DNA of 64,000 nt from a virus. Where the stretch lies: the IMG/VR virus record IMGVR_UViG_3300047311_000725; one strand, 5' to 3'. Shown here one piece after another: positions 4,020 through 57,149 of the stretch. Both the position numbers and the translations under genes were made by a program. The notes under the pieces are model-generated. The model had not been told where the DNA came from. It worked only from the letters and a program-made list of their open reading frames with translations, and ran no database searches. Every line of letters begins with the position of its first letter. Positions within the stretch are counted from its first letter, which is position 1.

Positions 4020-5153
4020 TCAGACTCCCGAAGTTCCGCCGCCGTGGCGCCGGAAGAGCTTGGACCAGATGACCATCGCTTCCCCCAGCCGCCTGAAGTA
4101 CTGGGCGTGTTCTGGGTACTCCGAATAGGCTCCGATGTGTTGCCCCATCTCGCCATAGCAGCCATCCAGGTCGAGCCCCGGAGAGATCTGAGCCTTGTCG
4201 ACGTGCTCCCAGAACTTCTCGTTGACCTCGATGCCGTTCGCTTCCTTCTTCAGGTTGGCGAACGGGTTGCTGGCCCGTTCGTGCCGGATGTAGGGCATGC
4301 CTGTCGAGACCTGAAGACGCTTCACGTCCGCGATCTTCTTCATCAGGATGCCGCACCAGATGTCGCCGAACCTGTCGAAGGCCAACTTCTCCAGCGCCAG
4401 GCCCGGAGAGTCCGGGACCGTGAGGAGAGTCCCCAGGGGCGGGGTGTAGATCTTGCTGTTCTCTCTGGAGTGGAGGACCTGGCCCATGAGCAGGTGGTAC
4501 ATGAGGACCGTCGCGTCCCGGCGCCACATGACGTTCATGCCGCACATCGGGAAGTACGAGCCGTTGGGCACGATCCGGTTGTCGAAGCTGAACTCCTCGG
4601 GGATCGGGTTGGCCAGCTGGAACGGGGCGTCGTAGTCCAGCACGTTGGTCCAGAGCCCGTGATTGACGATCACCTTGTCGTTGCGACCGAGGTTGTAGAA
4701 CGGGATGCCACGTGGCTTCACCTTGTTCAGGGTGTTGAACCACCGGGTCCGCTTCTCCAGGTACTGGAGGTGGGAGGCGACGAACGACTCCCCGTCCTCG
4801 TACTGAAGTCCATCCACATCCCTCGACGGCGGGTAGCAGTCGTCGTCGAGGGTGAGGATGAAATCGTAACCCATCTTCCAGGCGTAGTAGTACGCGTAGC
4901 TCCTGACCGTGTCCGAACGCCGGGGGATGATCCAGCTGTCTTTCCCGAGGTCAGCCTCGATGTCTTCCCAGCAGAGGTGGACCGCTCCCCACCGCTTGTC
5001 GACGCTGGAAACGTCGAAGGTCTTCTTCGGGTTGTCCTCCATCACGATCAGGTCGACTGCCTGATAGAGACCGAGGGCTTCCCACCGGGAGATGAAGTCC
5101 TTGAAGGAGTTCTCCCGGATGGTCGGAATGACGAGAGCGACGCGCATGGACAT
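4020..5153 (-). CDS. GT75-family protein, homolog of plant reversibly glycosylated polypeptide / UDP-arabinopyranose mutase
   Basis: Strong collinear matches to Arabidopsis RGP1 as remembered: LVIPTIREN, FILTLDDDCY (DxD), HGLWTNVLDYDAPFQL, FPMCGMN, MPYIRHERASNPFANLKKE. Confidence 0.85.
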   Translation of the reverse strand: MSMRVALVIPTIRENSFKDFISRWEALGLYQAVDLIVMEDNPKKTFDVSSVDKRWGAVHLCWEDIEADLGKDSWIIPRRSDTVRSYAYYYAWKMGYDFILTLDDDCYPPSRDVDGLQYEDGESFVASHLQYLEKRTRWFNTLNKVKPRGIPFYNLGRNDKVIVNHGLWTNVLDYDAPFQLANPIPEEFSFDNRIVPNGSYFPMCGMNVMWRRDATVLMYHLLMGQVLHSRENSKIYTPPLGTLLTVPDSPGLALEKLAFDRFGDIWCGILMKKIADVKRLQVSTGMPYIRHERASNPFANLKKEANGIEVNEKFWEHVDKAQISPGLDLDGCYGEMGQHIGAYSEYPEHAQYFRRLGEAMVIWSKLFRRHGGGTSGV

Positions 5154-5155
5154 AC

Positions 5156-5380
5156 CTAGATGTACTCCCCATCGACGATCTTGAGAGCTGCTCGGCGAAC
5201 TTCCGCCATCGAACCGTAGGGACCGTGCGGCTTCTGGACTCCCGCCTGGACGAAGAACCACTCGTCCTCGATGCGGGTGATGTGGCCAAGATAACTGTCC
5301 TTGGCCATCTTGGGACCGTTCTCGTGGATGCTATCGACGCCTGCTCCGTCACTCATCCAGGTGATCTTGATCTTGGCCAT
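5156..5380 (-). CDS. hypothetical protein (74 aa)
   Basis: ORF with balanced composition between GT75 gene and flotillin gene. Confidence 0.45.
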   Translation of the reverse strand: MAKIKITWMSDGAGVDSIHENGPKMAKDSYLGHITRIEDEWFFVQAGVQKPHGPYGSMAEVRRAALKIVDGEYI

Positions 5381-11921: not shown

Positions 11922-12986
11922 TTAGAAAATCCACCAGAGGTTCTTACGGCTTTCCCGTCCGCTCGGCATCCCGAGGAACGTGCGCCAGATCCGAGTCGAA
12001 GACTCCACGAAGTCGTTCAGGGCTTCCTGCTGCACCTTGACCGTCTTGTGGCTGCTCTCCAGTGCGCGGATGGCCTCGGTTGCCGCCTCCGAGGTGTCGT
12101 CGATGTTGGACTGGTACCTTTCCGGCACCCAGCTGACGGCCTCTCCGACGATCACTGGCACCCCGCTGGACACGGCGTCCGCGGCCACCAGGCAGAAGGT
12201 CTCGGTGGCGGACAGCTGGAAGACCAGGTCCATCTCAGCGATGGTCTCCCGGAAGGTGGCCGCGTCCTGCCAGCTCACCTCGATCAGCTTCGCCCAGGGG
12301 AGACCAGCGAAGAGGTTCCGCATCGTGTTCCGGACGCTGTGACCTCCCGGGGTATTGTCGGTATTGACGTAGAACTCCAGCTGCCGGTCGAGGCGGACGG
12401 CGACCTGAAGGGCCGCCAGTGCCGCGGAAGAGTGGAGCTTCAGGAGCCGGGTGGCACCGAAAGAAGCCAGCCTGAGGATGCGATCGTGGCTGTGCTTCTT
12501 CGGGGGAGACCCGTCCCAGTCGAAGAGGTTCGGCAGGTAGAGCACGTCGCCGTAGACTTCCCCGAGAGAGTTGCAGAACTCCTGGTTGTTGCTGGAGAAA
12601 GAGATGTTCGGGTACTCTTCCCCGAGGTCGATGAGGGCCCGGATGACCGGGATGGCCTCGGGCTCGACCTGGAGGAACCCGATCTTGGAGTGCGCCCGCA
12701 CCACGATCTTGAGGTGGGGGTGGGCGTGGGACAGGAGGACGACCTCGGACGCCTTGACCCAGACCGCCTCGATGACGGCGTGGGTGATGTCCGGGTTGGC
12801 CCGAAGGTAGGCCGCCAGCTCGTCGAAGCTGGACACGGCGACGAGGTCTACGTCTACACCCTCCCGACGGAGGACGCCGACGGTGTGCAGCGCGTTCGCC
12901 GCCAGTCCGCCCGTGTGGTAGGGATTGTGACCCTGTCCTGAGGACTTGGACTTGTAGAAGATCCTGAGCTTTGTCGTGCGCTTCAT
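11922..12986 (-). CDS. GT-B fold glycosyltransferase, GT4-like
   Basis: C-terminal ETFCLVAADAVSSGVPVI matches GT4 E-x7-E donor-binding motif; 354 aa. Confidence 0.7.
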   Translation of the reverse strand: MKRTTKLRIFYKSKSSGQGHNPYHTGGLAANALHTVGVLRREGVDVDLVAVSSFDELAAYLRANPDITHAVIEAVWVKASEVVLLSHAHPHLKIVVRAHSKIGFLQVEPEAIPVIRALIDLGEEYPNISFSSNNQEFCNSLGEVYGDVLYLPNLFDWDGSPPKKHSHDRILRLASFGATRLLKLHSSAALAALQVAVRLDRQLEFYVNTDNTPGGHSVRNTMRNLFAGLPWAKLIEVSWQDAATFRETIAEMDLVFQLSATETFCLVAADAVSSGVPVIVGEAVSWVPERYQSNIDDTSEAATEAIRALESSHKTVKVQQEALNDFVESSTRIWRTFLGMPSGRESRKNLWWIF

Positions 12987-25272: not shown

Positions 25273-25797
25273 TCAACGCGCTCGGTACTTTCGGTGAAGG
25301 TATCTAATTGCGCCAAAGAGCCGCGGGTTGCACCGCTTCATCTTGCGCTTCTGTTCGGGAGTGCCGCAGTAGTACGTCTCGAATCCGATCGCGATGTACT
25401 CGTCGACGTTCTTCCGGGCGTAGGTGTCGGGGAGGTAGCGGGCCTTCTTCTTCTTCTCGGTGATGATGTCGTCTCGTTCAGACAGACCTTCTTCATCGTC
25501 GATGTTGTGGGCCAGCTCGTGGATGAGGATGCGGGCGAGGATCTCTCGGGACTGGTTCGTGAAGCTGATGCGGATGAGACCGTTGAGGTGGTCTCCGTGG
25601 TCGGGCATCAGGGTGAAGTAGATCTCCTTGACCTTGTCGGCGTAGGAGAACGGGACGTTCAGCTCCTCCATCTCAGACATGAGCTGGGCGATGTCAGGCT
25701 GGCACCTTTCACTGAACCTGATGAGGGTGCGAGAAGCGTTCTTGAGAATGTAGTCCCCCTCGTCGGTGGGGCACCGGGCAGCGATCCAAGACTCCAT
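25273..25797 (-). CDS. putative zinc metallopeptidase (HExxH)
   Basis: ILIHELAHNID motif; 174 aa. Confidence 0.5.
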   Translation of the reverse strand: MESWIAARCPTDEGDYILKNASRTLIRFSERCQPDIAQLMSEMEELNVPFSYADKVKEIYFTLMPDHGDHLNGLIRISFTNQSREILARILIHELAHNIDDEEGLSERDDIITEKKKKARYLPDTYARKNVDEYIAIGFETYYCGTPEQKRKMKRCNPRLFGAIRYLHRKYRAR

Positions 25798-25819: not shown

Positions 25820-28800
25820 TTACTTCTGCTTCTTGAATGGGAACTTCTTCTTCGGATCGACCAGGCTGTAGGGAGAGGGAGTGACCTTCAGGGCCTTCAG
25901 CTCGGGGATGATCTCGTAACGACCGGTCCTGGATGCTACACGTACCCCCTTCCGTCCCGAGGTCACTTCGAACTGGGGGACGGGCGGATTGAGCTTGGAG
26001 AGACCGAACGGGTCCTCGTCTCCAAGAAGATAGAAGTCGTTGCCGAACTGCATGTACGGGGCGTTCTTGTACTTGTAGTGGGCGGCCACCAGCTGCTGCA
26101 CGTCCCCCGCCCCGACGTTCAGGTAGATGTAGCGGTTGCCCTTGCCTGCCGACTTCTTGTTGTCGATGAAGGCGTTGATCTCGTCCGGGGTCACGGCGTT
26201 CGGACTACGCTTCATGATGTCGGCGGGCTTCCCCTGCGACGGCATGGAGAGGACCTTGGGCACCGGAAGACCCTGCTCCTTGCGGCTCTTGGCCACGAAG
26301 GCGTGCAGTTCCTTCAGGAACTTCTGGGCGTCGGGGTTCGTCTCCAGGTCCTTGGCGATCCCGGCCGTGAAGCCGGTCTGCTCGCCCGATCCCTGCCACT
26401 TCCCGTCCACCAGCTTCATGCGGGCCGAGACGAGGTTGGCGCCGCCGGCCTCGGTGTACTTGGCCTCGATGTAGGCGCTCTTCCCGCCGATGGTCACCTC
26501 GACGTCCGCCTTCTTCGGATCGTTGCCACCGACGGCCTTGGCGTCGATGCCCTGGCTCTGGAGGGACTTGGCCACCAGGTGCTCGAACTGGTTGGAGGCG
26601 CGGTCAGACGTCTTGGCCTGAGTCTTCTCAAGGAGCCGCATGATCTCTTCCCCGATGGCCTTGGCCGTGTCGACACCCTTCAGCTTGTCGGACCAGAGCT
26701 CGAACTCTTCCGGCGCTTCCTGGTAGGCCGCGACGTCCTCGTCGGTGAACATGTTCTGCGGGCTGGACCAGCCGGAGCTTCCCGCCCTGAGACCTGCCTG
26801 AGTTCCGCCGGGGCCGCTTCCCGGGGTCATGGTGATGCCGATCTCGGAGATGATGGTCTCCATGATCTTCTCGAGCACGGGCGGTTCGCCGCCGTTGGTA
26901 CGGCCGCCCGGGTCAGAGAGCACGTACTCCCCGCCACGCTTCATGATGTTGTCGCCCTTGTAGTCGGCGAACATGATGTTGGCCTGCTTGAGCTCCGCCA
27001 TCATCTGGTCGATCTGGTACTTCTTCAGACCGCGCTCGATGTAGTCGATCTTCTGGTCGATCATCCGCTGGATCCGCTCGCGGTTCTTGGCGCCGGCAGA
27101 CACCAGGTCGCGAGAGAGCTCGTCACGGATCTTCTTCATGACCGTGTCGTAGTCCACGATGTGGGGCGCCCCGCCCGTGACTTCGGAGGAGCGGAGGTCA
27201 TCGACCAGGTCATCGACCTCGGTCTTCTCGGCCGGAGACAGGGGGTGTAGCTTCTCCCGGATGATTCCGTAGAGGGGCTTGTCGGGGTTTCGACGGTCGA
27301 TCATCCGGAAGACGTCATCGATCTTGACGACGTGCGGAAGGGTCTTTCCCTTGAGGGCGAGGCAGGACTTCGCCTCGTTGGGAGAGGTCGTCGCCTTGAA
27401 GACCTTGTTGTTGCCCATGTCGTAGGCCACGCCGACCTGTCCCGCTCCGAGGCGATGGAGCTGGTCGGCGTTGATGCCCTTGGCACGGAGCTTCTCCCCG
27501 TTGTTCTTGATGACGGCCATGATGGCGTTCTCGCCACCGAAGTCGGCGATGTCTTCCCGGAGCGGACCCTCGTTCTTGGCCAGCTCGTCCTTCAGATCCT
27601 TGTAGATGGACTCGAAGGTCGCCTGGTTCGAGGTGACATGCGGGTCGAGCATGCTCTTGACGGCGTTCCGGTCGTCCTTGGCCAGAGCCTGACGTAGACG
27701 GGTGCCGCTGATCCGGTCGGTGTCGTCGTCGTTCTTGACGCCCGGAAGCATCTTGACGACGGCCAGATCGGGATCGAAGTTGCTGTCTGCCGCCTTCCCC
27801 TGGGCCTTGTACTCCTTGGACCGGTCGATCTGCTGCTTCATCTGCTCGAAACGGTCGGGTCCGACCAGGATCTCGCAGGCCGTGTCGCCCTTCAGGGCGC
27901 TGCCCTTCCCGGCCACGTCGGAGAGGATGCCCGGGACGAAGCCGCTGTTCTTGCCGCCCGAGGTCGCCTTGTAGACCTCCAGCTTCCTCCAGACGTCCGG
28001 GAGGGACGCCTTCATGAGCTTGAGCCGGGTCTCGTAGGAGAACGGGTTCTTCTTGTCCGGCGTGTTGCCGGCCACCAGGACGATGGTCTTGGTGTGGGTA
28101 TTGGCGAGCTTCCGAATCACTTCGGCGTGACCCCGGTGGAACGGCTGGTAACGTCCTATGGTCACGCCCACCGTGTCAGCCTGGGCCTCCTCGATGTTTC
28201 GAGCGTACTTGTCGACCGTGCCGTCCTCGGTGTGATTCACGAGGCCGCCGTCTACGCCGACGTACTCCTGCTTGTCGTCCGTGTAGTCCGGCTTGCTCCG
28301 CTCTTCCAGGTCGTCGGCACGTCCCACCGGACCCTGGCCCTTGAGGCGCTGGGTACCGGAGAACTCCCGCATCAGGGTGTGGACGATCCGCTCGAGGACA
28401 GGGGGAGCCGCGCCCGGGCTCTGGCTGAGACCGAGGTCGATGACGACGTAGTCGTTGCCCCGCATCATCAGGTTCCCCTCGTGGTAGTCGAGGAACTCGA
28501 TACGCTGGCCCGCCAGCTCCTTGATGATCTCCGGAAGCTGGAACTCCTTCATCTGGGAGTCCATCAGCTTCTGGACGTCCTTGTCCTTGATGTGGAGCCG
28601 GACCTGGTCCATCACCTTGCCGTAGTCGCCCGAGAGGATGGCCTCGCCAGCCTTGCAGGCCTGCAGCAGGTCCGTCACCAGCTCGAACTCCTTCTTGTCG
28701 TAGGCCGACATCTGGGCGAGCTTTTCCTCGACGATGCCATAGAACTCCGACCCAGGGAGCTGGAAGACGTCGAAGATGTGGACCACGTGCTTGAGCTTCT

Positions 28801-31800
28801 TGTCCTTCAGATGGTTGGAGGACTTGGCTTCAAGGATGTCGTCCGTCACCTTCAGGACCCGACCTGCTCCGATGTCGAAGGCGATGCCGTGCGCCCCGTG
28901 TCCGAGCGGCTTGAGCGGTCCCTTCACGATCCCCTTCTTCTTGAGGAGAGGGAGCACGTCCCGGACCACGTCCATCATGGGACGGTCCTTCTGGGCCTTC
29001 TTACCGGCCTGAGCGGCCTTGAGGGCGGCCAGCCTGTTCGGCGGACCTTCGTCGAGGTACGGGACCTTGTTCTCCAGGACGGGCGGTTCCTTCCCGCCGG
29101 CGACCTTGGAGTAGCCGATGTCGATGAGAACGTAGACCCCGCCCTGGCGGACCATGATGTTGCCCGCGTGGTAGTCGTGGAACTTGATCCCCTTCGAGTT
29201 CAGCTCCTGCACCATCTCGTCGATATGCACCTTCTTCGTGATGATGTCCCACTGGACGTTCATCTTCTTGGCGTAGGCGATGGCGTACTTGTTGTCGATC
29301 TCGTCCGTCTTCCAGGTCGGGTACTTCTCGGCGATCTTCTTGAAAACGCCCTCCTGGCAGGCTTCCTTGGTCTTGTCCCAGTTGTAGCCCGAACGGTAGA
29401 TCGTCTCCTGAAGGTTGAAAGCGAGGATGGCGCGGTTCAGATCAGCCGCCTCTCCGCTGGCGTCCAGACCGCTGGGGTCCTTGCCCATGCCCGGGAACGG
29501 GGCGAGCTTCTCCTGGAGGATGCCGTAAACGGCGCCGACCAGTTCCTCGTCCTCACGGAAGCGGAAGACGTCCGAGAAGCGGGCGACGTGCTTCAGGTTG
29601 ACGTCCATCAGCTTGTAGGAAGCGACCGCCTCCTGCTCGTCGTTGGTGATCTTGAGGACCTTCCCTCCGACGTCGAACGCGACTCCACGTGTTCCCTTCC
29701 CGAGCGGGTGGGCCCCACGGACGTTGATCCCCCGCTTCGCCAGCTGGGGGATGTTCTTCTTGAGGATCTGCTGGGCCATCTCGGTCGTGACGCCGGTGGT
29801 GGCCTTGGGCGCGCCCTTGGTCTTGGTCTGGGCGACGCTGGTCTTGTCGAACCCCGAGGTCGGCTTCTGGCCGGTCTGCGGCTGGGTGGCCCCGTACGAA
29901 TCCACTCCGGGTGCTTCACGCATGACGGATTCCTCGGCCTCTTCCTCGCCGCCGCCCTGGAGCCTCTCCAGACGGTGCTGGCCGAGGAAGAGCTTCATGA
30001 TGGCTACCTTCTTGGTCAGGTCGCCCTTGAGCCCACCGATCGCCTCGGCGGCCTTCTGGAGCTCGTCCAGCGACTGGTGGGCCTGCTGGAAGTCCGTGTC
30101 CGTCCGCTGCATCACGAGCGGGTCCATCTTCCGGGTCTGCCCCTTGAGCTGGACGGTCGGCCCCTTCTTCTTCTCGGCGGCCCACTCGGCCTCGAGCTGC
30201 TTCATCTCGTTCTGAGCCTTGGTGATCTCGGCCTTGAAGGTCGCGACCGGGTCCTTTCCGCCGAAGGCCTTGTTCTTCTTCACCCACTGTCCGAGCAGGT
30301 AGTCGTTCTTCTTCTCGGGGGTGTCGGCTTCCTTCGGGTACTCTGTCTCGGAGTTCAGGGAAGAGAGCTGCCGGCCGAAGGCGGTGCTGGCCGCCTCAGG
30401 CTTCCCGATGACGTCGGTGGCCACCCGCTTCCTGAAGTCGGAGATGACGCCGTTCCGCCAGATGTTGTCGACCTTGGTCCCCTTGCCGATGAGACCGCGG
30501 TACTTCCAGTTGAACTGGTTGAGCTTCGTGAAGAGGTCCTTGTCGACGAGCTTGGTGAGCGCGCCGTTCTCCAGGTCACGGAAGACGATGCCTTCCACGT
30601 CCCCGCCTTCGGGACCGTAGGAGGACTTCTGCTTCCGGAGCTGTCCGACCAGCTTCTCCTTGACCGCCTTCTGGATCGCCGAGAAGCGCTCCATGGCCGC
30701 CTTGTACGGGCCCTTGCCCGCCGCCTTCAGCTTGTCCGGCTCGAGCTTCTTCAGCTCCTGGTAGATCTGTCCGAGGGAGGTGAACTCCTCCTTGACGTCC
30801 ACCATCACGTCTTCCGGGCTGATGACCCGCTTGTACTCGAACTTCCACGGGTCCTTGCCGTCCGTGAGCTGGCCGCCCGACTTCTTGATGAGGTCGTTGG
30901 CCACCTTCTTGGAGGCCTCGTCGGACAGGACCGCGTCGCCCTTGTGGACGCCGTGGATCATGATGACGTTCGGACCGTACTCGATGGAGTTCGGGATCTT
31001 GGTGTACAGGACCTCGGCCGTGAAGACGGTGTTCGGCGGGATGTTCTGTCCCACCGGCTTGGACTCGAGCGCCTTGTGGGCGTTCTTGAGAGCCGCGAAC
31101 ATCGGCTTGTCCGGCCACTCCTTCGAAGACTTCTTCGGAGTCCCGTTCTTGCTCTTGGTCCAGAGCTTTCCGTTCTCGGCACCGAACTCCATGCGGGCGG
31201 AGCCGTCCACCTTCTCGGAGACCTCGAGCCCGCCCTTGAGCGGCAGGTCCTTGTACTTCGCCAGGAACTGCAGGAACTCCTGGGGCTTCATGTCCTCGAG
31301 GTGAGAGATGCCGCCGCCCTCGTCGAGCTTGGCCGCCTTCAGCTGGCCCGGATCCGTCGACCACCAGATCTTGTCGATCCGGGTCTCGTGGGTGCCGGGG
31401 TTGAGCGCCTTGGCCGAACCCTTGGTCGCGGCGTCCGAACGCCCGCGGAGGATCGCCATGATGTTGCCCTTCCGTTCCGCAGTGGCCGCGGTGGTGGCAT
31501 AGACCATGGCCAGCTTCGGATTGGCGGACCAGTAGCCCTTCTTGTCGACCTTGCTGATCACCGCCGAGCCGTTCGGCTGGGACGGATTGCCGCCGAGCTT
31601 GGCGAGCTCCTGGGGAGTGAGACCACGGAGACCGCGGAAGACGACGCCCTCGGGCTCGTTCGCTTCACCGAGCTCCGACGGCTCGTCGTGCTTGGCTCCC
31701 TTGAGGAAGCCCTTCAGGTAGCCCTTGACCTTCTCCAGCTTCTTCGGATCCATGGTGGACTTGGCCTTGGCCCACACCTGCTCGAACGGCGCAGCCAGGT

Positions 31801-32725
31801 CCTTCACGGACCACGGCGTGCCGGTGCCCTTGGAGATGAGCTTGGCCACTTCCTCGGGATCACTGATGCTGGTGGCGTCCACACGGTCCGACTTGAACTC
31901 TTCCTCGCCCTTCTTGTTCTTGACCTTCCGACCGACCTTCTGGAAGACTCCCTTGGCCGGGCTGATGGACCAGAACTTGACCGAGCCGTCCGGCTGCGGT
32001 TCCTCGGTGGCGTACCGGAGGAGACCGAGGACGAGACCTGTGCGGGGAAGCGCCTTGTACTTAGACTCGCTCTCGCCAGGTCCATAATAGGAGAACTGGG
32101 TCCACGCCTCCGGACCGACCATCAGGTCGACCTGGGCGGAGAGCTTGGTGGGCTTGCCATCAGGGGTGTACTGCGGGAACTTGGAGTTGATCTCGCCCAG
32201 TCCCTTGGCGACCTTGTGCTCGATCCCCAGCTTCTTCAGGATGGCCGAGATCTCTTCGAGGGACAGTTCGGTGTCCAGGCCGAGGTCGATGTCCCCGCTG
32301 GACGCCTTCTTGCCGGTGGAACCCACGGGCTTCACGGACTTGTGCTTGACCTTGGAGAGGACCTGCTTCTTGTAGGCCTCGATCGTCGGTCCGACGTTCT
32401 CACGGGGGACACGGTCGGTCCCCATGGCGTTGCCGCCTTCGGTGAGATCGCTCTGGTCGGAGTAGGTGACGGTCGGCTCCTGTGCGGCGCCGGCATCGTC
32501 GGGGATGGGGGACTTGGCCAAGGGTGCCTCGCCTTCCTTCATGAAGGGGAACCGCTGCTCTTCGTCGTCCTCGAGACCGTCCGGCACCGGGTACCCGGGC
32601 TTGCCCGCACCACCGCCATGCCGGTTGTCGCCGGTCCCGCCGGCTGCACGCCCTGAGTAGTTTGGTTGAGACGCCCCGTAGATTGATCGGAGCGACTCTC
32701 GGATGATGTCGTCGAGCCGGGACAA
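25820..32725 (-). CDS. 2301-aa multidomain protein: ligase/capping-enzyme-like nucleotidyltransferase region + three tandem protein-kinase-like domains + HxGH (cytidylyltransferase-fold) nucleotidyltransferase domain
   Basis: KxDG motif SEKVDGSAR (~nt 31205-31225), later EGIVFR; three repeats each with Gly-loop/VxK (LGKGTRGVAFDVGGKVLK; LGHGAHGIAFDIGAGRVLK; LGAGQVGVAYDMGNNKVFK), catalytic D-x4-N (HDYHAGNIM; LDYHEGNLM; ADYKGDNIM) and DxG (DIG; DLG; DPG); TIGRYQPFHRGH HxGH motif (~nt 28130-28165). Confidence 0.85.
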   Translation of the reverse strand: MSRLDDIIRESLRSIYGASQPNYSGRAAGGTGDNRHGGGAGKPGYPVPDGLEDDEEQRFPFMKEGEAPLAKSPIPDDAGAAQEPTVTYSDQSDLTEGGNAMGTDRVPRENVGPTIEAYKKQVLSKVKHKSVKPVGSTGKKASSGDIDLGLDTELSLEEISAILKKLGIEHKVAKGLGEINSKFPQYTPDGKPTKLSAQVDLMVGPEAWTQFSYYGPGESESKYKALPRTGLVLGLLRYATEEPQPDGSVKFWSISPAKGVFQKVGRKVKNKKGEEEFKSDRVDATSISDPEEVAKLISKGTGTPWSVKDLAAPFEQVWAKAKSTMDPKKLEKVKGYLKGFLKGAKHDEPSELGEANEPEGVVFRGLRGLTPQELAKLGGNPSQPNGSAVISKVDKKGYWSANPKLAMVYATTAATAERKGNIMAILRGRSDAATKGSAKALNPGTHETRIDKIWWSTDPGQLKAAKLDEGGGISHLEDMKPQEFLQFLAKYKDLPLKGGLEVSEKVDGSARMEFGAENGKLWTKSKNGTPKKSSKEWPDKPMFAALKNAHKALESKPVGQNIPPNTVFTAEVLYTKIPNSIEYGPNVIMIHGVHKGDAVLSDEASKKVANDLIKKSGGQLTDGKDPWKFEYKRVISPEDVMVDVKEEFTSLGQIYQELKKLEPDKLKAAGKGPYKAAMERFSAIQKAVKEKLVGQLRKQKSSYGPEGGDVEGIVFRDLENGALTKLVDKDLFTKLNQFNWKYRGLIGKGTKVDNIWRNGVISDFRKRVATDVIGKPEAASTAFGRQLSSLNSETEYPKEADTPEKKNDYLLGQWVKKNKAFGGKDPVATFKAEITKAQNEMKQLEAEWAAEKKKGPTVQLKGQTRKMDPLVMQRTDTDFQQAHQSLDELQKAAEAIGGLKGDLTKKVAIMKLFLGQHRLERLQGGGEEEAEESVMREAPGVDSYGATQPQTGQKPTSGFDKTSVAQTKTKGAPKATTGVTTEMAQQILKKNIPQLAKRGINVRGAHPLGKGTRGVAFDVGGKVLKITNDEQEAVASYKLMDVNLKHVARFSDVFRFREDEELVGAVYGILQEKLAPFPGMGKDPSGLDASGEAADLNRAILAFNLQETIYRSGYNWDKTKEACQEGVFKKIAEKYPTWKTDEIDNKYAIAYAKKMNVQWDIITKKVHIDEMVQELNSKGIKFHDYHAGNIMVRQGGVYVLIDIGYSKVAGGKEPPVLENKVPYLDEGPPNRLAALKAAQAGKKAQKDRPMMDVVRDVLPLLKKKGIVKGPLKPLGHGAHGIAFDIGAGRVLKVTDDILEAKSSNHLKDKKLKHVVHIFDVFQLPGSEFYGIVEEKLAQMSAYDKKEFELVTDLLQACKAGEAILSGDYGKVMDQVRLHIKDKDVQKLMDSQMKEFQLPEIIKELAGQRIEFLDYHEGNLMMRGNDYVVIDLGLSQSPGAAPPVLERIVHTLMREFSGTQRLKGQGPVGRADDLEERSKPDYTDDKQEYVGVDGGLVNHTEDGTVDKYARNIEEAQADTVGVTIGRYQPFHRGHAEVIRKLANTHTKTIVLVAGNTPDKKNPFSYETRLKLMKASLPDVWRKLEVYKATSGGKNSGFVPGILSDVAGKGSALKGDTACEILVGPDRFEQMKQQIDRSKEYKAQGKAADSNFDPDLAVVKMLPGVKNDDDTDRISGTRLRQALAKDDRNAVKSMLDPHVTSNQATFESIYKDLKDELAKNEGPLREDIADFGGENAIMAVIKNNGEKLRAKGINADQLHRLGAGQVGVAYDMGNNKVFKATTSPNEAKSCLALKGKTLPHVVKIDDVFRMIDRRNPDKPLYGIIREKLHPLSPAEKTEVDDLVDDLRSSEVTGGAPHIVDYDTVMKKIRDELSRDLVSAGAKNRERIQRMIDQKIDYIERGLKKYQIDQMMAELKQANIMFADYKGDNIMKRGGEYVLSDPGGRTNGGEPPVLEKIMETIISEIGITMTPGSGPGGTQAGLRAGSSGWSSPQNMFTDEDVAAYQEAPEEFELWSDKLKGVDTAKAIGEEIMRLLEKTQAKTSDRASNQFEHLVAKSLQSQGIDAKAVGGNDPKKADVEVTIGGKSAYIEAKYTEAGGANLVSARMKLVDGKWQGSGEQTGFTAGIAKDLETNPDAQKFLKELHAFVAKSRKEQGLPVPKVLSMPSQGKPADIMKRSPNAVTPDEINAFIDNKKSAGKGNRYIYLNVGAGDVQQLVAAHYKYKNAPYMQFGNDFYLLGDEDPFGLSKLNPPVPQFEVTSGRKGVRVASRTGRYEIIPELKALKVTPSPYSLVDPKKKFPFKKQK

Positions 32726-36706: not shown

Positions 36707-36711
36707 TGCAT

Positions 36712-36722
36712 ATAATATCATG
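36712..36722 (-). promoter_or_regulatory. promoter-like CATGATATTAT element 5 nt upstream of family-A polymerase ATG
   Basis: Variant of TGnTATAAT family. Confidence 0.3.
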
Positions 36723-36747
36723 TGCAGGAGGAAAAGGGAAGGAAAAC

Positions 36748-41565: not shown

Positions 41566-44500
41566 TTACGGTTGGACCATGCCCTTTACGGTGGCGCGGC
41601 CGAGGACGTCTCCGTCCGGAGTCAGAACTGTCACGTGGGTGTCTCCGCTCTTGCCGCCCTTCCCGGCTCCGCCCGACCCGGCCTGAGGCTGGGCGACAGG
41701 CGAGGTGTCGGCGGCTCCGATGGCCTTGGAACTGCGGGCCTGCGCCTTGACGTAACCGAGGGTCTCGGAAGAGACCTTGCCGCCTTCCGCGCCGTACTTG
41801 TCCAGCGCCTTGACGTAGTCGCCGCCGGCGTCCTTGAGGATCGCCTGGAAGCCAGAGTTGTACTTCTCCAGGCTCTCCAGCTCGAGGCGGGCCTGCGTCT
41901 GCTTGTTCTGCTCGATGCCGATCTTGAGTGCGTCCGTCTCCACGTTGTTGCGCTTCGCCTGAAGCTGCTGCAGCTTGGACTCGGCCAGGTCAGAGGCGTA
42001 CTTCGTGTCCGCCAGGGACTTCTGCCAGGCCTTGGAGTTCTCGTTCGCCAGACCGACGGAGTCGACGAGCTCTGCCGTCGAGCCGAGGACCGAGTCGTAC
42101 CAGTGAGCCTGGTCCTGCGCGTTCTTCTGCTGCTTCTCGGCGAGCTGGACCTCGGCGTCGATCTGGGCCTTCGCGGCGTCTGCCTTCTTCTTCTCGATGT
42201 CCAGCTGGTTCGTCTGGAACAGGTTGTCGAGGTACTTCTTGGACTCTGCGTCGAGGCTGCTGATCGTCTTCTGATAGACGTCTCCAGCTTCCTTCAGCTT
42301 CTGGAACTGGTCCTTGGTCAGCTTGATCGGACCTGCGGAAGGGTCTCCGAGCTTGGCGAGGGTGTCCGCGCTGAGGTTGGTCTGGATGCCGAGGTTGGAG
42401 TAGTCCTTGAGCCGCTCCTGGACCGAGAGCTTCTCTTCCCCGTCCAGCTGGATCGTGCCCTTCTTCCCCTGCCGGATGACCTTGTTCATGGCCTCATCGG
42501 CCCGGTCGTGTCTGTCCTTCAGGGCGGCGTTCTTGACCCGCTGGAGGTTGAGGGCCGCCTCGGACTCCTCGAACTTGTCCTGGGTCTGTGAGAGGCGCTT
42601 CATGGACGCCTCGAGCTCCTTGGACTCCGGGGTCTCGAGGAGCTTCTGGACGCCGATTCCGATGGCGGTGCCGAGGGCCGTGCCAACCGCGGTCCCGATC
42701 GGACCAAAGAGCGAACCGATCGCGCCACCAGCTCCACCGCCGATGCCGCCGCCGGCCGTCGCTCCGAAGAGCGAACCCACACCGGCGCCGACACCAGCGC
42801 CGACCGCGCCGCCCATGGCCATCTTTCCCATGGCTCCCATGCCACCGCCGCCGGCCTGCGCCGAGTAGCCAGGTCCGCCCTGCATCGAGTTGGCGATGCC
42901 GCCCTTGGCGTTGGCGATGGTCCCGCCGATCCCGCCGAGAGACTTGAGGTTCTTGTACAGCTCCACTCCGCCGGCGACACCCTGTCCGACCTTCATGAGG
43001 CCCCAGATGCCGACGATGCTGGCCGAGATCACGGCGAACTTCTTCAGGGCGTCGATGATCTTCTGGATGTTGCGGCCGAGGTTGTTCGGCGAGAAGAAGT
43101 CCGCGATCTTGGAGGCCACCTCCTTGACGAACTTCGCTCCCATCTTCATGAAGTTCTGGAAGTCCTCGTTCTTTCCGAGGGCCTCGAAGAAGGCGATGAT
43201 CTTCTTGGTGATGCCTTCCATCACCTGACCAAAGCTCTTCCATTCCTTGTCACTGGACTTGGTCAGCCCGAGCAGGTCGGTGAACGGCTTGATCGCCTTG
43301 GCGATCGCGACCGTGATGCGGTCAGCCGCGGCTCCGAAGTTGTACAGCGTCTTCGCCGTCGCCTGAAGCTGCTGCTTCATCATCTTGTCGGCGTCGATGG
43401 CCTTCCGCTTGTTCTTCTCATCCTCCTTCATGAAGTCCTGGTAGGTCTTACCAGCGTCCGCCGCCTTGAGGAGGGCGGCCGACTGCTCTTCCGTGAGGTC
43501 CAGCGTCTGGGACACCACCTTGCGTTCCTGCCGGGAGAGGTGTTCCCAGTCCTTGCCCTGGTCGAGGAGCGAGCCGCGGATCGTTTCGAACCGCTTGGCC
43601 GGGTCCTGCTCTAGCATCATGTTGAGGGCGTCGACGGACGTACCGAAGACCGAGTTGAACTTGCCGATGCTGGTGGCCGCGTCCTCGAAGCTGTCGAACT
43701 TGTCCATCATCTTCTCCGTGTCCTTCAGAGAGATGTTGAACGACTTCAGGTAGGCTGCCGACTTGACGAGGGCCTTGGCGCCCTCCTTGCCGAACTGGGT
43801 GATGAAGCCCGTGGCCTCGGAGAAGTCCTTGGCCAGCGCGTTGGTAGAGACACCGGCGGTCTGGGCACCGACGACGATCTCCTTCATGTACTCGGAGACT
43901 TCCTTCTTGTGTTCGTCGAACCCGAGGTTGTCGAGGGAACGGGTGAACTTTCCGGCCGCCTCCCCGCCCATGTCAAAACCCTGGGCGAGTGTCACACCGA
44001 TCTTGGCGAGCCCCTTGACGTCCATCTTGCCGAAGCCCTGGACGAAGTCGGCAAACATCTTGGTGCCTTCACCGAGCTCTCCGCCGAGTCCACGGATGGC
44101 AGACTCAGCCTGACGGGACTCCTTCCAGAAAGTCTTCATGCTCGGGCTAAGCTTGCCGAGCTTCTGGTTCACCTCGCCCGTGACCTTGGCCCACCGCTCC
44201 TCCAGGTCGTACACCCGCTGGATGCCCTCGACAAGGAGGTTGATGCCCTTGGCTGCCCCCGTACCCCAGATCTTGAGCAGGCCCTTGCCCACCTTGTCCA
44301 GGGTGTCTCCCATCTTTCCCCAGATGCTGGTGAGCTTGTTCGCCTGGATCGCCAGCTTCTCCATCTTCCTGACCATGTCGTTGGCCAGGTCGACGTCCTT
44401 CTGGTCGATGATCTGCATGTTGGCCTTGGCCGACTGCATCTTCTGGACCTGAGCGTCCAGGTCTCGGGCCAGGTCCTTGTAGCTGTCGTTGGTGTCCCGG

Positions 44501-44613
44501 ACGTTGTCGGCGTACTTCTTTGAAGACGCAACTATGGCGTCCAGCTTGTTGGCGATGTCGTCAAGCCGGCCCTGCTGGTCCTTTAGATCGTCGAGTCCAG
44601 GTATCCTAGGCAA
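41566..44613 (-). CDS. tail tape measure protein
   Basis: 1015 aa, long coiled-coil stretches, central Gly/Ala-rich hydrophobic segment, position between chaperone-like gene and baseplate-region genes. Confidence 0.8.
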   Translation of the reverse strand: MPRIPGLDDLKDQQGRLDDIANKLDAIVASSKKYADNVRDTNDSYKDLARDLDAQVQKMQSAKANMQIIDQKDVDLANDMVRKMEKLAIQANKLTSIWGKMGDTLDKVGKGLLKIWGTGAAKGINLLVEGIQRVYDLEERWAKVTGEVNQKLGKLSPSMKTFWKESRQAESAIRGLGGELGEGTKMFADFVQGFGKMDVKGLAKIGVTLAQGFDMGGEAAGKFTRSLDNLGFDEHKKEVSEYMKEIVVGAQTAGVSTNALAKDFSEATGFITQFGKEGAKALVKSAAYLKSFNISLKDTEKMMDKFDSFEDAATSIGKFNSVFGTSVDALNMMLEQDPAKRFETIRGSLLDQGKDWEHLSRQERKVVSQTLDLTEEQSAALLKAADAGKTYQDFMKEDEKNKRKAIDADKMMKQQLQATAKTLYNFGAAADRITVAIAKAIKPFTDLLGLTKSSDKEWKSFGQVMEGITKKIIAFFEALGKNEDFQNFMKMGAKFVKEVASKIADFFSPNNLGRNIQKIIDALKKFAVISASIVGIWGLMKVGQGVAGGVELYKNLKSLGGIGGTIANAKGGIANSMQGGPGYSAQAGGGGMGAMGKMAMGGAVGAGVGAGVGSLFGATAGGGIGGGAGGAIGSLFGPIGTAVGTALGTAIGIGVQKLLETPESKELEASMKRLSQTQDKFEESEAALNLQRVKNAALKDRHDRADEAMNKVIRQGKKGTIQLDGEEKLSVQERLKDYSNLGIQTNLSADTLAKLGDPSAGPIKLTKDQFQKLKEAGDVYQKTISSLDAESKKYLDNLFQTNQLDIEKKKADAAKAQIDAEVQLAEKQQKNAQDQAHWYDSVLGSTAELVDSVGLANENSKAWQKSLADTKYASDLAESKLQQLQAKRNNVETDALKIGIEQNKQTQARLELESLEKYNSGFQAILKDAGGDYVKALDKYGAEGGKVSSETLGYVKAQARSSKAIGAADTSPVAQPQAGSGGAGKGGKSGDTHVTVLTPDGDVLGRATVKGMVQP

Positions 44614-54728: not shown

Positions 54729-54744
54729 CGCATGTTCCTTCCTT

Positions 54745-56406: not shown

Positions 56407-57149
56407 TAGCCCACGATGTTCCCCTGCTCGTCCCTCCAGTACAGGCCGTCAGAGACCTGTTCCTGGCTGGCGTCGGAGTTGAAGATCTCCAGACCCTTGA
56501 CCTTGTTCGCCGGCGGGCGCGTCACGTTGGAATAGATAGGAAGTTCTTCCCGTCCAGGTTGCGTCCCAGGTTCGTCCACGAAGGCGGGAACCGACAGGCT
56601 CCCTGAGTGGTAGGTGGACCTGGTCTGTTCCGGAAGCTGACGGGTGAAGCTCGGCTTGTTGTCCAACGGGTGGGTGCGGTCCACGTTCTGGTTGGAGTTC
56701 GCCCCGTTGGAGAACTGCTGCTCCCGGGCGACGACCAGCTTGCACTTGGTCATGAGCTTGTTGTTGACCTGCCCGAAGATGAGCTGGGGCTTGGTCACCG
56801 AGGTGATCTCGTAGTACTGCTGGCCGTACTCGATGAAGTCGCCTTCCCTCGGCTTGAGGTTCCGCTCGTTCAGCTCCTGAGTGTGGAAGTACACCTCGCT
56901 GGCGTAGTCGCTGTCCGACCCCCAGAGGCCGCTCTTGGTCGTGGGGTTGTCGTAGAGGACCCGGGCGGTGCAGCGGACGGGGGCGGCCCACGTCTTCTTG
57001 ATGGCCTCGTTGTAGAGGTCGTCGGTCTTCGTCTTGTCCAGGAGCACCGCGTAGTACATCACCTCCTCGTCCACGACGTGCTGATGCAGCTCGCGGATGA
57101 TCGAGTTGACGAAGGCGATCTCTCTGGTGCCGACGAACTTGCGTGCCAT
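56406..57149 (-). CDS. hypothetical structural protein (247 aa)
   Basis: ORF, start overlaps upstream gene stop. Confidence 0.5.
   Translation of the reverse strand: MARKFVGTREIAFVNSIIRELHQHVVDEEVMYYAVLLDKTKTDDLYNEAIKKTWAAPVRCTARVLYDNPTTKSGLWGSDSDYASEVYFHTQELNERNLKPREGDFIEYGQQYYEITSVTKPQLIFGQVNNKLMTKCKLVVAREQQFSNGANSNQNVDRTHPLDNKPSFTRQLPEQTRSTYHSGSLSVPAFVDEPGTQPGREELPIYSNVTRPPANKVKGLEIFNSDASQEQVSDGLYWRDEQGNIVG

What the first reader, a model, noticed from the sequence alone, without database searches (positions are those of the whole stretch)
25820..32725. 2301-aa protein combining a ligase-like nucleotidyltransferase, three tandem protein-kinase-like domains and an HxGH nucleotidyltransferase
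Reading the translation shows four recognisable regions in order. (1) SEKVDGSAR, later FTAEVLY and EGIVFR, fit the KxDG / motif III / motif IV signature of ATP-dependent ligases and capping enzymes. (2-4) Three paralogous modules each carry a Gly-loop, a VxK lysine, a D-x4-N catalytic loop (HDYHAGNIM, LDYHEGNLM, ADYKGDNIM) and a DxG. That is the eukaryotic-like kinase / aminoglycoside-phosphotransferase fold, repeated three times. (5) TIGRYQPFHRGH is the HxGH motif of the cytidylyltransferase / NMNAT / sugar-phosphate nucleotidyltransferase superfamily. I know of no characterised protein with this architecture. Two hypotheses, both inference. (a) A sugar-1-kinase plus sugar-1-P nucleotidyltransferase assembly line supplying an unusual NDP-sugar to the DNA glycosylation enzymes elsewhere in the window (anomeric sugar kinases such as NahK have this kinase fold; HldE-type transferases have the HxGH fold). 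(b) An RNA-repair or NAD-salvage anti-defence factor (ligase + NMNAT-like).
Basis: partly seen in the sequence, partly recalled or inferred. Interest (0 to 1): 0.85.

Follow-up and report, generated by a model that had tools for sequence, protein, structure and literature searches.

The report
Giant phage multi-enzyme counter-defence protein
A real 2301-residue gene of an uncultured tailed phage strings together an RNA-sealing enzyme, a nucleotide-adding enzyme, three stripped-down kinases, an NAD-making-type enzyme and a nuclease-like tail, most likely a toolkit for undoing host defences that cut RNA or destroy NAD+.

Summary
The ORF (25820..32725, minus strand, TTG start with a GGAGGG Shine-Dalgarno) is real and is identical in two independent assemblies. 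The domain order is different and there are more domains: conserved N-peptide; PolX-like Pol-beta nucleotidyltransferase (missed); about 115 unassigned residues; RNA ligase plus helical extension; kinase 1; kinase 2; NadM-like HxGH nucleotidyltransferase; kinase 3; conserved linker; PD-(D/E)xK-like C-terminus (missed).

About 45 metagenomic protein clusters share the syntax ligase, 0-5 kinases, HxGH domain. Some swap in 2H phosphoesterase, SLT, pyrophosphatase, Nudix or ART-PolyVal domains. A small zincin-like gene follows in all six loci examined.

Best reading: a new family of phage "polyvalent" counter-defence proteins centred on RNA-end repair and NAD+ re-synthesis. The NDP-sugar hypothesis is not supported. 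The RNA-repair/NAD-salvage hypothesis is. Substrates, proteolytic processing and virion delivery remain inference.

The parts
25820..32725 (-). Whole gene, 2301 codons plus stop. TTG start at 32725 with GGAGGG 6 nt upstream.
32450..32725 (-). Residues 1-92: conserved Gly/Pro-rich N-terminal peptide (GxGxPGYPVP). It ends at the conserved L-T-E-G-G junction (94-98). Function unknown.
31670..32449 (-). Residues 93-352: Pol-beta-superfamily nucleotidyltransferase with a PolX-like palm and thumb. G135-S136, D145-x-D147 and D200 are invariant.
31316..31669 (-). Residues 353-470: unassigned insert present in only a few members. It aligns weakly to the N-terminal half of the 2H domain of P0002/P0012 but has no HxT motif. 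It ends in L-D-E-G-G-G.
30446..31315 (-). Residues 471-760: ATP-dependent RNA-ligase-type adenylyltransferase domain. Motif I K505-x-D-G, motif III E571, motif IV E711-G-I-V-F-R, motif V K725/K729.
29921..30445 (-). Residues 761-935: helical extension that always accompanies the ligase domain.
29042..29773 (-). Residues 985-1228: kinase module 1. G-loop 1008-1017, VLK K1025, D1185-x4-N1190, D1202-x-G, then PPVLE.
28382..28963 (-). Residues 1255-1448: kinase module 2. G-loop 1274-1283, K1292, D1414-x4-N1419, D1430-x-G.
27551..28228 (-). Residues 1500-1725: HIGH-superfamily (HxGH) nucleotidyltransferase, NadM/archaeal-NMNAT-like. GRYQPFHRGH 1524-1533, NPFSYETR 1560-1567, RISGTRLR 1671-1678.
   Evidence: Pfam CTP_transf_like above cut-off. 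PHROG cytidyltransferase 1e-18. NCBIfam NMNAT models, far below cut-offs. PDB profile search 2qjt 8e-12, 1f9a 2e-11.
26861..27505 (-). Residues 1741-1955: kinase module 3. G-loop 1759-1768, K1777, D1921-x4-N1926, and S-D1938-P-G-G in place of IDLG.
26726..26869 (-). Residues 1953-2000: conserved linker with AGSSxWSS (1981-1988), present in nearly all family members. Function unknown.
25823..26695 (-). Residues 2011-2301: C-terminal domain with a PD-(D/E)xK-like motif set (FE2048..LV, D2074-V-E-V, Y-I-E2087-A-K2089).
   Evidence: Pfam Mrr_cat weak (0.054 in the query, 0.0014 in P0004). PDB Hjc-type resolvase 7bgs E 0.026. Alignment.
25273..25797 (-). Downstream neighbour, 174 aa: zincin-like metallopeptidase (HELAHNID). 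A gene of this size sits in this position in all six loci examined, with a Pfam ATLF hit on record in five.
   Evidence: Pfam ATLF 2e-5, M90, M91. Synteny.

Best explanation
The gene encodes a phage 'polyvalent' multi-enzyme, a single polypeptide that carries several unrelated enzymes used against host defences.

Shown by computation:
- a PolX-like nucleotidyltransferase followed by an RNA-ligase-type adenylyltransferase with a helical extension;
- three paralogous protein-kinase-fold modules that keep the ATP-binding and catalytic residues but end about 16 residues after the DxG motif, so they lack the kinase C-lobe;
- a HIGH-superfamily nucleotidyltransferase closest to NadM/archaeal NMN adenylyltransferase;
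- a PD-(D/E)xK-like C-terminal domain.

Inferred mechanism:
- The N-terminal pair fills in and reseals RNA, most plausibly tRNA cut by host anticodon nucleases. In some relatives a 2H cyclic phosphodiesterase takes the place of the filling enzyme.
- The HxGH domain re-makes NAD+ from NMN and ATP when host NADase defences deplete it.
- The kinases phosphorylate host proteins in the manner of T7 gp0.7, or possibly repair substrates.
- The nuclease-like tail acts on nucleic acid.
- The small zincin-like peptidase encoded immediately downstream probably cuts the polyprotein at inter-domain junctions, several of which carry conserved [LIVM]-x-E motifs.

Whether the protein is packaged in the virion and injected is open.
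For: Domain identities:
- Kinases: mutual hhalign probability is 100% with E < 1e-57. G27, K41, D200, N205 and D218 are invariant in 29 modules. The profile matched 172 PDB sequences, and the 60 shown are all protein kinases. Pfam APH/ABC1, NCBIfam Bud32 and the PHROG T7-kinase family also match.
- HxGH domain: best PDB relatives are NadM and archaeal NMNAT (8e-12, 2e-11).

Family and polyvalent character:
- Fifteen close and about 39 more distant multidomain clusters share Lig-Ext-K(0-5)-CT-K-LNK. CT is present in 37/39 and at least one kinase in 35/39.
- Modules are swapped in and out: 2H replaces D1, and SLT replaces a kinase.
- More distant relatives carry InPase in 7/24 and single cases of Nudix and ART-PolyVal.
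- A small gene follows the giant gene in all six loci, with a Pfam ATLF (zincin) hit on record in five. In the window it has Asp three residues after HExxH, the variant described for phage polyvalent proteins (PMC5512222). That paper also describes C-lobe-less kinases with intact active sites in polyvalent proteins.
- In jumbo phage Atu_ph07 a ligase homologue and a D1 homologue are adjacent, overlapping genes. This supports a ligase-NTase partnership independent of the fusion.
- Conserved [LIVM]xE sits at the domain junctions 94, 352, 1216, 1511, 1722 and 1954-1959.
Against: - No substrate has been tested.
- The kinase catalytic loop (D-Y-H-x-G-N) lacks the Lys of canonical Ser/Thr kinases and resembles APH/RIO/Bud32-type atypical kinases, so small-molecule or RNA substrates are not excluded.
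- The NMNAT similarity covers only the first ~60 residues plus the ISGTxxR motif. NCBIfam scores (about 32 bits) are far below the equivalog cut-offs of 127-449.
- No Nampt or clear NR kinase was found among the window ORFs scanned; a number of smaller ORFs were not scanned.
- The near-constant ligase-HxGH pairing suggests functional coupling rather than independent effectors.
- The gene lies in the replication module (DNA pol A ... SSB, RecA), not beside head genes. No MuF or portal fusion was seen, which weakens the 'injected' part of the polyvalent concept.
- The C-terminal nuclease assignment rests on weak matches (E 0.0014-0.05).
- The PPVLE motif after each kinase could be a structural remnant of the kinase APE motif rather than a cleavage site.
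- Standalone D1 homologues in three large phage contigs sit near Nudix, SIR2 or NadM-Nudix genes rather than ligases.
Confidence: 0.55

Rival explanations
1. Integrated Trl1-like 'heal and seal' RNA-repair machine. All modules serve one pathway. A 2H or other phosphoesterase opens the 2',3'-cyclic phosphate, the protein-kinase-fold modules act as polynucleotide 5'-kinases, and the PolX-like enzyme restores lost nucleotides. The ligase then seals the break, and the NMNAT-like domain supplies NAD+ for Tpt1/KptA-type removal of the junction 2'-phosphate.
Against: To my knowledge no protein-kinase-fold enzyme is known to phosphorylate polynucleotide 5'-OH ends. Kinase number varies from 0 to 5 and four ligase-CT proteins have none, which is odd for an obligatory step. 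No KptA/Tpt1 domain was detected in the protein or among the ORFs scanned. The query itself has no intact 2H domain. SLT and ART-PolyVal modules in relatives have no role in RNA repair.
Confidence: 0.2
2. NDP-sugar assembly line. The kinase modules are anomeric sugar kinases and the HxGH domain is a sugar-1-phosphate nucleotidyltransferase. Together they feed the phage's DNA glycosylation enzymes.
For: The window does encode glycosyltransferase-like proteins (RGP/GT75-like at 4020..5261, GT4-conflict at 11922..12986) and a thymidylate-synthase-like enzyme. Pfam APH, the family that holds NahK and MTR kinase, matches 8/15 members with a best E of 3e-9. The catalytic loop DxHxGN is APH-like. HldE-type transferases belong to the same HIGH superfamily (established knowledge).
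Against: None of the 52 PDB matches of the HxGH profile is a sugar- or alcohol-phosphate transferase. The best are NMNATs, sharing the signature GRFQPFHxGH and NPFSFxxR. The 60 best kinase-profile PDB matches shown are all protein kinases. The domain set is fused to an RNA ligase, a PolX-like NTase and a nuclease-like domain, and in relatives to 2H, Nudix, ART and SLT. None of these belongs to sugar-nucleotide synthesis. The glycosyltransferase genes lie 13-21 kb away.
Confidence: 0.07
3. Mainly structural internal virion or ejection protein, whose enzyme-like regions are decayed relics.
For: It is very large. SLT lytic-transglycosylase domains sit inside some relatives, as in ejection proteins such as T7 gp16. 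It has conserved low-complexity N-terminal and linker peptides.
Against: All catalytic residues of five or six enzyme domains are invariant or nearly so across a family with only 35-60% overall identity. The gene lies in the replication module. No virion-protein family matched.
Confidence: 0.05

Closest known systems
Polyvalent proteins of phages and conjugative elements (Iyer, Burroughs, Anand, de Souza, Aravind 2017, PMC5512222)
   Same: One giant polypeptide combines biochemically unrelated enzyme domains. Modules are shuffled between relatives. C-lobe-less Ser/Thr/Tyr-type kinase domains keep intact active sites. Pol-beta NTases, 2H, SLT and ART-PolyVal domains are in the repertoire. A zincin-like metallopeptidase with Asp three residues after HExxH is linked to the protein.
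   Different: The paper states that the 2H domains of polyvalent proteins were never seen with RNA ligases. Here an RNA ligase plus an NMNAT-like HIGH NTase is the constant core. The peptidase is a separate neighbouring gene, not a fused domain. The gene is in the replication module with no MuF, portal or head linkage, so injection is unproven.
Fungal/plant tRNA ligase Trl1 (LIG-KIN-CPD)
   Different: The Trl1 kinase is a P-loop enzyme; here the kinases have the protein-kinase fold and vary in number. Domain order differs, and the extra PolX-like, NMNAT-like and nuclease-like domains are absent from Trl1.
Phage T4 tRNA repair (Rnl1 + Pnkp) and jumbo-phage RNA-repair sets (PMC7824862)
   Same: A phage-encoded ATP-dependent RNA ligase works with end-modifying enzymes and a Pol-beta-type NTase (RlaP) to reverse anticodon-nuclease damage.
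   Different: Those are separate small proteins. The NTase here is not detectably RlaP (no Pfam hit) and is structurally PolX-like. No P-loop Pnk or HAD phosphatase is present.
Phage NAD+ salvage enzymes NadM-Nudix and NadR (PMC7824862, PMC9503650)
   Same: A HIGH-superfamily adenylyltransferase with the GRFQPFHxGH signature. One distant relative also carries a Nudix domain.
   Different: It is fused to an RNA ligase and kinases rather than to Nudix or a P-loop NR kinase. No Nampt was found among the window ORFs scanned. The domain diverges after the first ~60 residues.
Phage T7 gp0.7 protein kinase
   Same: A small phage kinase of the protein-kinase superfamily used for host takeover. The PHROG family holding it matches module 2 (E 4e-4).
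   Different: gp0.7 is a single-domain early protein. Here there are three paralogous truncated modules inside a polyprotein.
ASFV Pol X + ligase repair pair
   Different: The ASFV pair repairs DNA. The ligase here is nearest to RNA ligases.

Membership tests
ATP-dependent RNA/DNA ligase - capping enzyme (covalent nucleotidyltransferase) superfamily | Motif I KxDG with the nucleotide-accepting lysine | tested here: met
   S-E-K505-V-D-G-S. K, D and G are invariant in 14 sequences and in 24 distant relatives.
ATP-dependent RNA/DNA ligase - capping enzyme (covalent nucleotidyltransferase) superfamily | Motifs III, IV and V (acidic residue, EGhhh, and lysines) | tested here: met
   AE571VLY, E711-G-I-V-F-R and K725-L-V-D-K729 are all invariant or nearly invariant. 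Motif V has the spacing KxxxK rather than KxK.
ATP-dependent RNA/DNA ligase - capping enzyme (covalent nucleotidyltransferase) superfamily | Adenylyltransferase-domain fold | tested here: met
T4 Rnl1 family (Pfam PF09511) | Profile score above Pfam's gathering cut-off | tested here: not met
RNA ligase (function) | Ligase-AMP formation and sealing of RNA ends | not testable with these tools
   Needs biochemistry.
Pol-beta superfamily nucleotidyltransferase / family X polymerase-like | hG[GS]-x9-13-DxD plus a third carboxylate on a later strand | tested here: met
   G135-S136...D145-I-D147 and Q198-V-D200 are invariant in 50 homologues. They align onto pol beta's GSFRRGAESSGDMDVLL.
Pol-beta superfamily nucleotidyltransferase / family X polymerase-like | Palm (plus thumb) fold | tested here: met
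RlaP (RNA-ligase-associated Pol-beta NTase, Pfam PF10127) | Match to the family profile | tested here: not met
   No PF10127 hit in the query at E <= 1 or in 15 members at E <= 0.1. Sixty-five standalone homologues carry no Pfam domain. The function may be analogous: it is fused to a ligase here and adjacent to one in Atu_ph07.
Protein-kinase-like (ePK/APH) fold | Gly-rich loop, beta3 Lys, alphaC Glu, D-x4-N catalytic loop, DxG metal-binding Asp | tested here: met
   All are present in the three modules. G27, K41, D200, N205 and D218 are invariant and E48 nearly so in 29 modules.
Protein-kinase-like (ePK/APH) fold | Statistically significant profile match | tested here: inconclusive
   In the query the matches are marginal (APH 1.7e-4, below cut-off; Bud32 6e-6; PHROG kinases 9e-5 and 4e-4). 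Relatives reach APH 3e-9 and ABC1 7e-9. The profile matched 172 PDB sequences at E >= 1e-3, and the 60 shown are all protein kinases. No structure model was made for a kinase module.
Canonical eukaryotic-type protein kinase | C-terminal lobe beyond DFG (activation segment, APE, helices F-I) | tested here: not met
   Each module ends about 16 residues after DxG (1202 to 1218, 1430 to 1445, 1938 to 1952).
Polyvalent-protein kinase clade (PMC5512222) | Loss of the C-terminal subdomain with the active site intact; Gln in the last N-lobe strand; insert between the conserved His and Asp | tested here: inconclusive
   The first feature is met. The Gln is present in module 1 and in the consensus (GIVQEKL) but is E or R in modules 2 and 3. 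The paper's alignment was not available for direct comparison.
HIGH-superfamily nucleotidyltransferase | HxGH motif and C-terminal ISxTxxR-type motif in a Rossmann-like domain | tested here: met
   PFH1530-R-G-H1533 and R-I-S1673-G-T-R-L-R1678 are present. Pfam CTP_transf_like scores 34.5 bits against a cut-off of 21 and TIGR00125 scores 36.7 against 27.7.
NMN adenylyltransferase (NadM/archaeal type) | Family-level profile score and NMN-binding residues | tested here: inconclusive
   The best PDB relatives are NadM (2qjt, 8e-12) and the M. jannaschii enzyme (1f9a, 2e-11), sharing GRFQPFHxGH...NPFSFE.R. Only about 60 residues align. NCBIfam NMNAT models score about 30 bits against cut-offs of 127-449.
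PD-(D/E)xK nuclease fold (Mrr/Hjc-like) | E...(P)D...(D/E)xK motif set on the core alpha-beta-beta-beta topology | tested here: inconclusive
   E2048 and E2087-x-K2089 are invariant in the four class-A C-termini; D2074 is kept in three of the four as aligned. Supporting matches are weak: Mrr_cat E 0.054 and 0.0014 and Hjc 7bgs E 0.026. No structure model was made.
Polyvalent proteins (PMC5512222) | Several domains of disparate biochemical activity in one polypeptide, with modular shuffling among relatives | tested here: met
Polyvalent proteins (PMC5512222) | Association with a zincin-like metallopeptidase | tested here: met
   It is an adjacent gene rather than a fused domain. A small gene follows in all six loci, with an ATLF hit in five. 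The window copy carries the HExxHxxD variant.
Polyvalent proteins (PMC5512222) | Virion packaging and injection with the DNA (MuF/portal fusion or head-gene neighbourhood) | tested here: not met
   No MuF or portal domain was found and the gene sits between DNA pol A and SSB/RecA. The only indirect hint is SLT domains in relatives. Actual packaging cannot be tested with these tools.

The most novel reading that the evidence does not exclude
The near-invariant fusion of a divergent RNA ligase with an NMNAT-like HIGH nucleotidyltransferase may mark a single coupled pathway rather than a bag of independent effectors. Protein-kinase-fold modules, and often a pyrophosphatase or 2H domain, usually accompany the pair. 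In this reading the protein is a self-contained RNA heal-and-seal machine. The protein-kinase-fold domains would serve as polynucleotide 5'-kinases, an activity I do not know for this fold. The HxGH domain would make, on site, the dinucleotide the pathway consumes: NAD+ for 2'-phosphate removal, or even as the ligase's AMP donor. The whole polyprotein would be cut at conserved [LIVM]xE junctions by its partner zincin peptidase, and possibly delivered pre-made from the virion.
Probability: 0.18. Interest if true: 0.85.

Novelty: new variant of a known kind. Interest (0 to 1): 0.62.

Why it matters
Host defences that cut tRNA or burn NAD+ are widespread. Known phage counter-measures are small separate enzymes: T4 Rnl1/Pnkp, NadM/Nampt and NARP pathways.

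This family puts RNA sealing, nucleotide addition, NAD-type nucleotidyl transfer and up to five minimal kinases on one chain. It occurs in a clade of uncultured myoviruses with no isolate counterpart.

It extends the polyvalent-protein concept to RNA repair, a combination the defining survey explicitly did not find. It offers compact, probably self-sufficient enzymes as reagents or study objects: a roughly 200-residue kinase core, a 260-residue PolX-like transferase and a new RNA-ligase lineage. It also gives a testable link between RNA-repair and NAD+-restoration counter-defence.

Tried and rejected
- tblastn against 50,697 phage records found no protein with this architecture. It returned only piecewise hits to hypothetical proteins of jumbo phages and to cytidyltransferase genes.
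- The annotations around the RsoM2USA and Atu_ph07 hits were all 'hypothetical'.
- Literature searches for '2H-SAK' and 'Swiss Army Knife' together with RNA ligase found nothing. The key RNA-repair survey (Burroughs and Aravind 2016) is not held.
- I considered that the 353-470 insert is an R-S-E ADP-ribosyltransferase. There is no Pfam support, and its only detectable similarity is a weak alignment to a 2H half-domain lacking the catalytic His. It is left unassigned.
- I considered that the head-module protease is a T4 gp21-type enzyme, which would match the [LIVM]xE junctions. It is trypsin-like instead.
- I looked for NAD-salvage partners such as Nampt or an NR kinase. Only generic P-loop/AAA_28 proteins turned up.
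- The class-A C-terminal domain has only one standalone homologue, so no deeper profile could be built.
- I looked for a ligase next to standalone D1 homologues in three large contigs and found none within 4 kb.
Full report
**1. The observation**

The ORF listing returns a 2301-aa ORF at 25820..32725 on the minus strand, starting with TTG. The start is credible because GGAGGG lies 6 nt upstream, directly after the stop of the preceding gene. Homologues also share the first residues.

The identical protein was called on two contigs from different sequencing runs, one of 76 kb and one of 19 kb. It is therefore not an assembly artefact. The 1520-aa ORF on the opposite strand gave no match anywhere and is a shadow ORF typical of 62% GC DNA.

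What needs correcting is the anatomy. The HxGH domain sits between kinase modules 2 and 3, and two further domains were missed.

**2. Anatomy**

A family alignment of 15 proteins and a conservation profile delimit the following blocks:

| Residues | Block |
|---|---|
| 1-92 | N-terminal peptide |
| 93-352 | D1 |
| 353-470 | poorly conserved insert |
| 471-760 | ligase |
| 761-935 | helical extension |
| 985-1228 | kinase K1 |
| 1255-1448 | kinase K2 |
| 1500-1725 | HxGH domain |
| 1741-1955 | kinase K3 |
| 1953-2000 | conserved linker (AGSSxWSS) |
| 2011-2301 | C-terminal domain |

*Kinases.* The three modules are paralogues, with hhalign probability 100% and E < 1e-57. Across 29 modules the Gly-loop Gly, the beta3 Lys, the D-x4-N loop and the DxG Asp are invariant. 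The joint profile matched 172 PDB sequences at marginal E-values, and the 60 shown are all protein kinases. Pfam APH/ABC1, NCBIfam Bud32 and the PHROG family of T7 gp0.7 also match. Each module stops about 16 residues after DxG, so the kinase C-lobe is missing.

*HxGH domain.* It passes the Pfam and TIGR00125 cut-offs. Its profile is closest to NadM and archaeal NMN adenylyltransferases (8e-12, 2e-11). It shares GRFQPFHxGH and NPFSFxxR with them and has ISGTxxR near the C-terminus. No sugar- or alcohol-phosphate transferase appears among the 52 matches.

*C-terminus.* A conserved E...D...ExK set matches weakly to Mrr_cat and to an Hjc-type resolvase. A second, longer C-terminal class in other members has an analogous GRGE...YDL...WEVKE pattern.

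**3. Context**

All genes in the window read on the minus strand. Upstream lie the structural genes of a myovirus:
- major head protein, 59154..60860
- head-tail adaptor (57149..58324)
- trypsin-like protease
- tail sheath, 50597..52939
- tail tube, baseplate hub and tape measure (41566..44613)

A replication block follows: split DNA pol A, an HD protein, four small ORFs, the giant gene, a 174-aa zincin-like protein, a putative SSB (read from its sequence; no family match), RecA/UvsX, a 5'-3' exonuclease, DnaB and RNR. After that come a DHH protein, a ThyA-like enzyme, glycosyltransferases, Pol III alpha and an SPFH protein.

The local order [quoted passage not shown] is the same in six loci from five different phages. 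The small gene after the giant gene has a Pfam ATLF (zincin) hit in five of the six loci.

**4. The family**

A word-indexed search found 15 proteins. An exhaustive HMM search with the ligase profile found 435 cluster representatives, 59 of them at E <= 1e-30. Mapping my own domain HMMs onto them gave 39 further multidomain proteins of 900-2500 aa. They share the syntax Lig-Ext-K(0-5)-CT-(K)-LNK-(Cterm).

The HxGH domain is present in 37/39 and at least one kinase in 35/39. Many standalone ligases of roughly 450-800 aa also turned up.

Modules are exchanged between relatives:
- 2H phosphoesterase replaces D1 in P0002 and P0012.
- SLT replaces a kinase in P0004 and P0014.
- A kinase can sit between D1 and the ligase.
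- P0015 has no kinase and P0012 has no ligase.

A Pfam scan of 24 diverse members adds InPase pyrophosphatase (7), 2H variants including Acb1-like (5), SLT (4), Nudix (1) and ART-PolyVal (1).

**5. Interpretation**

The pattern is that of the "polyvalent proteins" described by Iyer et al. (PMC5512222). Those are giant phage or plasmid proteins combining unrelated enzymes for early conflict with the host. They are typically linked to a zincin peptidase and include a kinase clade that has lost the C-terminal subdomain while keeping the active site. The neighbour gene here carries the HExxH-xx-D variant that paper describes for phage-type polyvalent proteins.

The same paper states that 2H domains of polyvalent proteins were never found with RNA ligases. 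Neither it nor two later surveys describes an RNA-ligase/NMNAT core. I therefore read this as a new family within a known concept.

The mechanistic assignments are inferred from family knowledge:
- PolX-like NTase plus RNA ligase (with 2H in relatives) repairs RNA ends after host anticodon-nuclease attack.
- The NadM-like domain re-synthesises NAD+.
- The kinases modify host proteins, as T7 gp0.7 does.

Independent support for the NTase-ligase partnership comes from Atu_ph07. There a ligase homologue (LEKLDGS...EGVVFE) and a D1 homologue are adjacent, overlapping genes.

**6. Open points and rivals**

The constancy of the ligase-HxGH pair, and the frequent pyrophosphatase, suggest coupling. 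This motivates the Trl1-like integrated-repair rival and the novel case. Against it stand the variable kinase number, the absence of any KptA/Tpt1 domain, and the presence of SLT and ART modules in relatives.

Conserved [LIVM]xE motifs sit at six inter-domain junctions within otherwise variable flanks, and L-x-E-G-G precedes both D1 and the ligase. They may be processing sites. However, the PPVLE after each kinase could equally be an APE-motif remnant.

Injection from the virion is suggested only by the SLT modules and by analogy. The gene's position in the replication module argues against it.

The NDP-sugar hypothesis is disfavoured.

**7. Verdict**

Domain identities are well supported for the ligase, D1 and HxGH domains. 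Support is good for the kinases and weak for the C-terminal nuclease. Function is inferred throughout.

Noticed in passing
window 45795-46029 (-): A cluster of three tRNA-like genes lies between the tail tube and baseplate genes. Rfam confirms two of them (58 and 41 bits). The middle one has a 5-bp anticodon stem with only a 6-nt loop (UUUUAA). The two outer ones share an enlarged 9-nt loop (AGUAAUGAC). None looks like a standard decoder. TAA is the commonest stop (25/51 genes), so an ochre-suppressor reading is unattractive. They could be decoys or repair-related RNAs, but this is untested.
   Followed up: partly
window 5390-7219 (-): A 609-aa protein carries an SPFH/Band-7 domain (Pfam 2e-29). 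From memory of Burroughs and Aravind 2016 (paper not held here), SPFH modules have been proposed as scaffolds of RNA-repair systems together with a tRNA-like RNA. Its co-occurrence with the odd tRNA-like genes and the RNA-ligase polyprotein may not be accidental.
   Followed up: no
window 53916-55025 (-): The protease in the head-morphogenesis block is trypsin-like (Pfam Trypsin_2, 4e-12) rather than a usual prohead protease family (S77/S78/U35). Glu-specific proteases have this fold, which is of interest given the conserved [LIVM]xE junctions in the giant protein.
   Followed up: partly
window 7857-11384 (-) and 35267-38607 (-): The phage encodes both a full Pol III alpha (PHP, NTPase, finger and HHH domains; 1175 aa) and a family A polymerase. 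The family A polymerase may be split into a 619-aa gene (no family match) followed by a 484-aa polymerase gene.
   Followed up: no
window 4020-5261, 11922-12986, 14943-15896 (-): The window contains an RGP/GT75-like glycosyltransferase (4e-35), a 'GT4-conflict' glycosyltransferase and a thymidylate-synthase-like enzyme.
   Followed up: partly
L009 4001-4942, L010 4001-4921, L011 4001-4963: Standalone homologues of the PolX-like domain (about 310 aa, no Pfam family) on 94-350 kb phage-like contigs lie within 1-4 kb of Nudix, SIR2, isochorismatase and NadM-Nudix genes. This hints at a link to NAD/ADP-ribose metabolism rather than, or in addition to, RNA ligation.
   Followed up: partly
window 26762-26785 and about 32582-32608 (-): Two short peptide motifs of the giant protein are conserved across nearly the whole family although their flanks vary: AGSSxWSS (residues 1981-1988) and GxGxPGYPVP (about residues 40-48). 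They could be docking, packaging or cleavage signals.
   Followed up: no
window 28094-32656 (+): A 1520-aa ORF lies antisense to the giant gene. It has no matches and is a GC-rich shadow ORF, not a gene.
   Followed up: yes
window 34687-35286 (-): A 199-aa HD-domain phosphohydrolase lies a few genes upstream of the giant gene, with a gene of the same size and position in the related loci. It is a candidate 3'-phosphate or cyclic-phosphate end-healing partner.
   Followed up: no
L004 4043-5840 (Atu_ph07 52163-53137 and 51340-52173): Two genes annotated 'hypothetical' in jumbo phage Atu_ph07 (AUZ94878, AUZ94877) are respectively a divergent RNA-ligase homologue and a PolX-like NTase homologue. 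The two genes overlap.
   Followed up: yes
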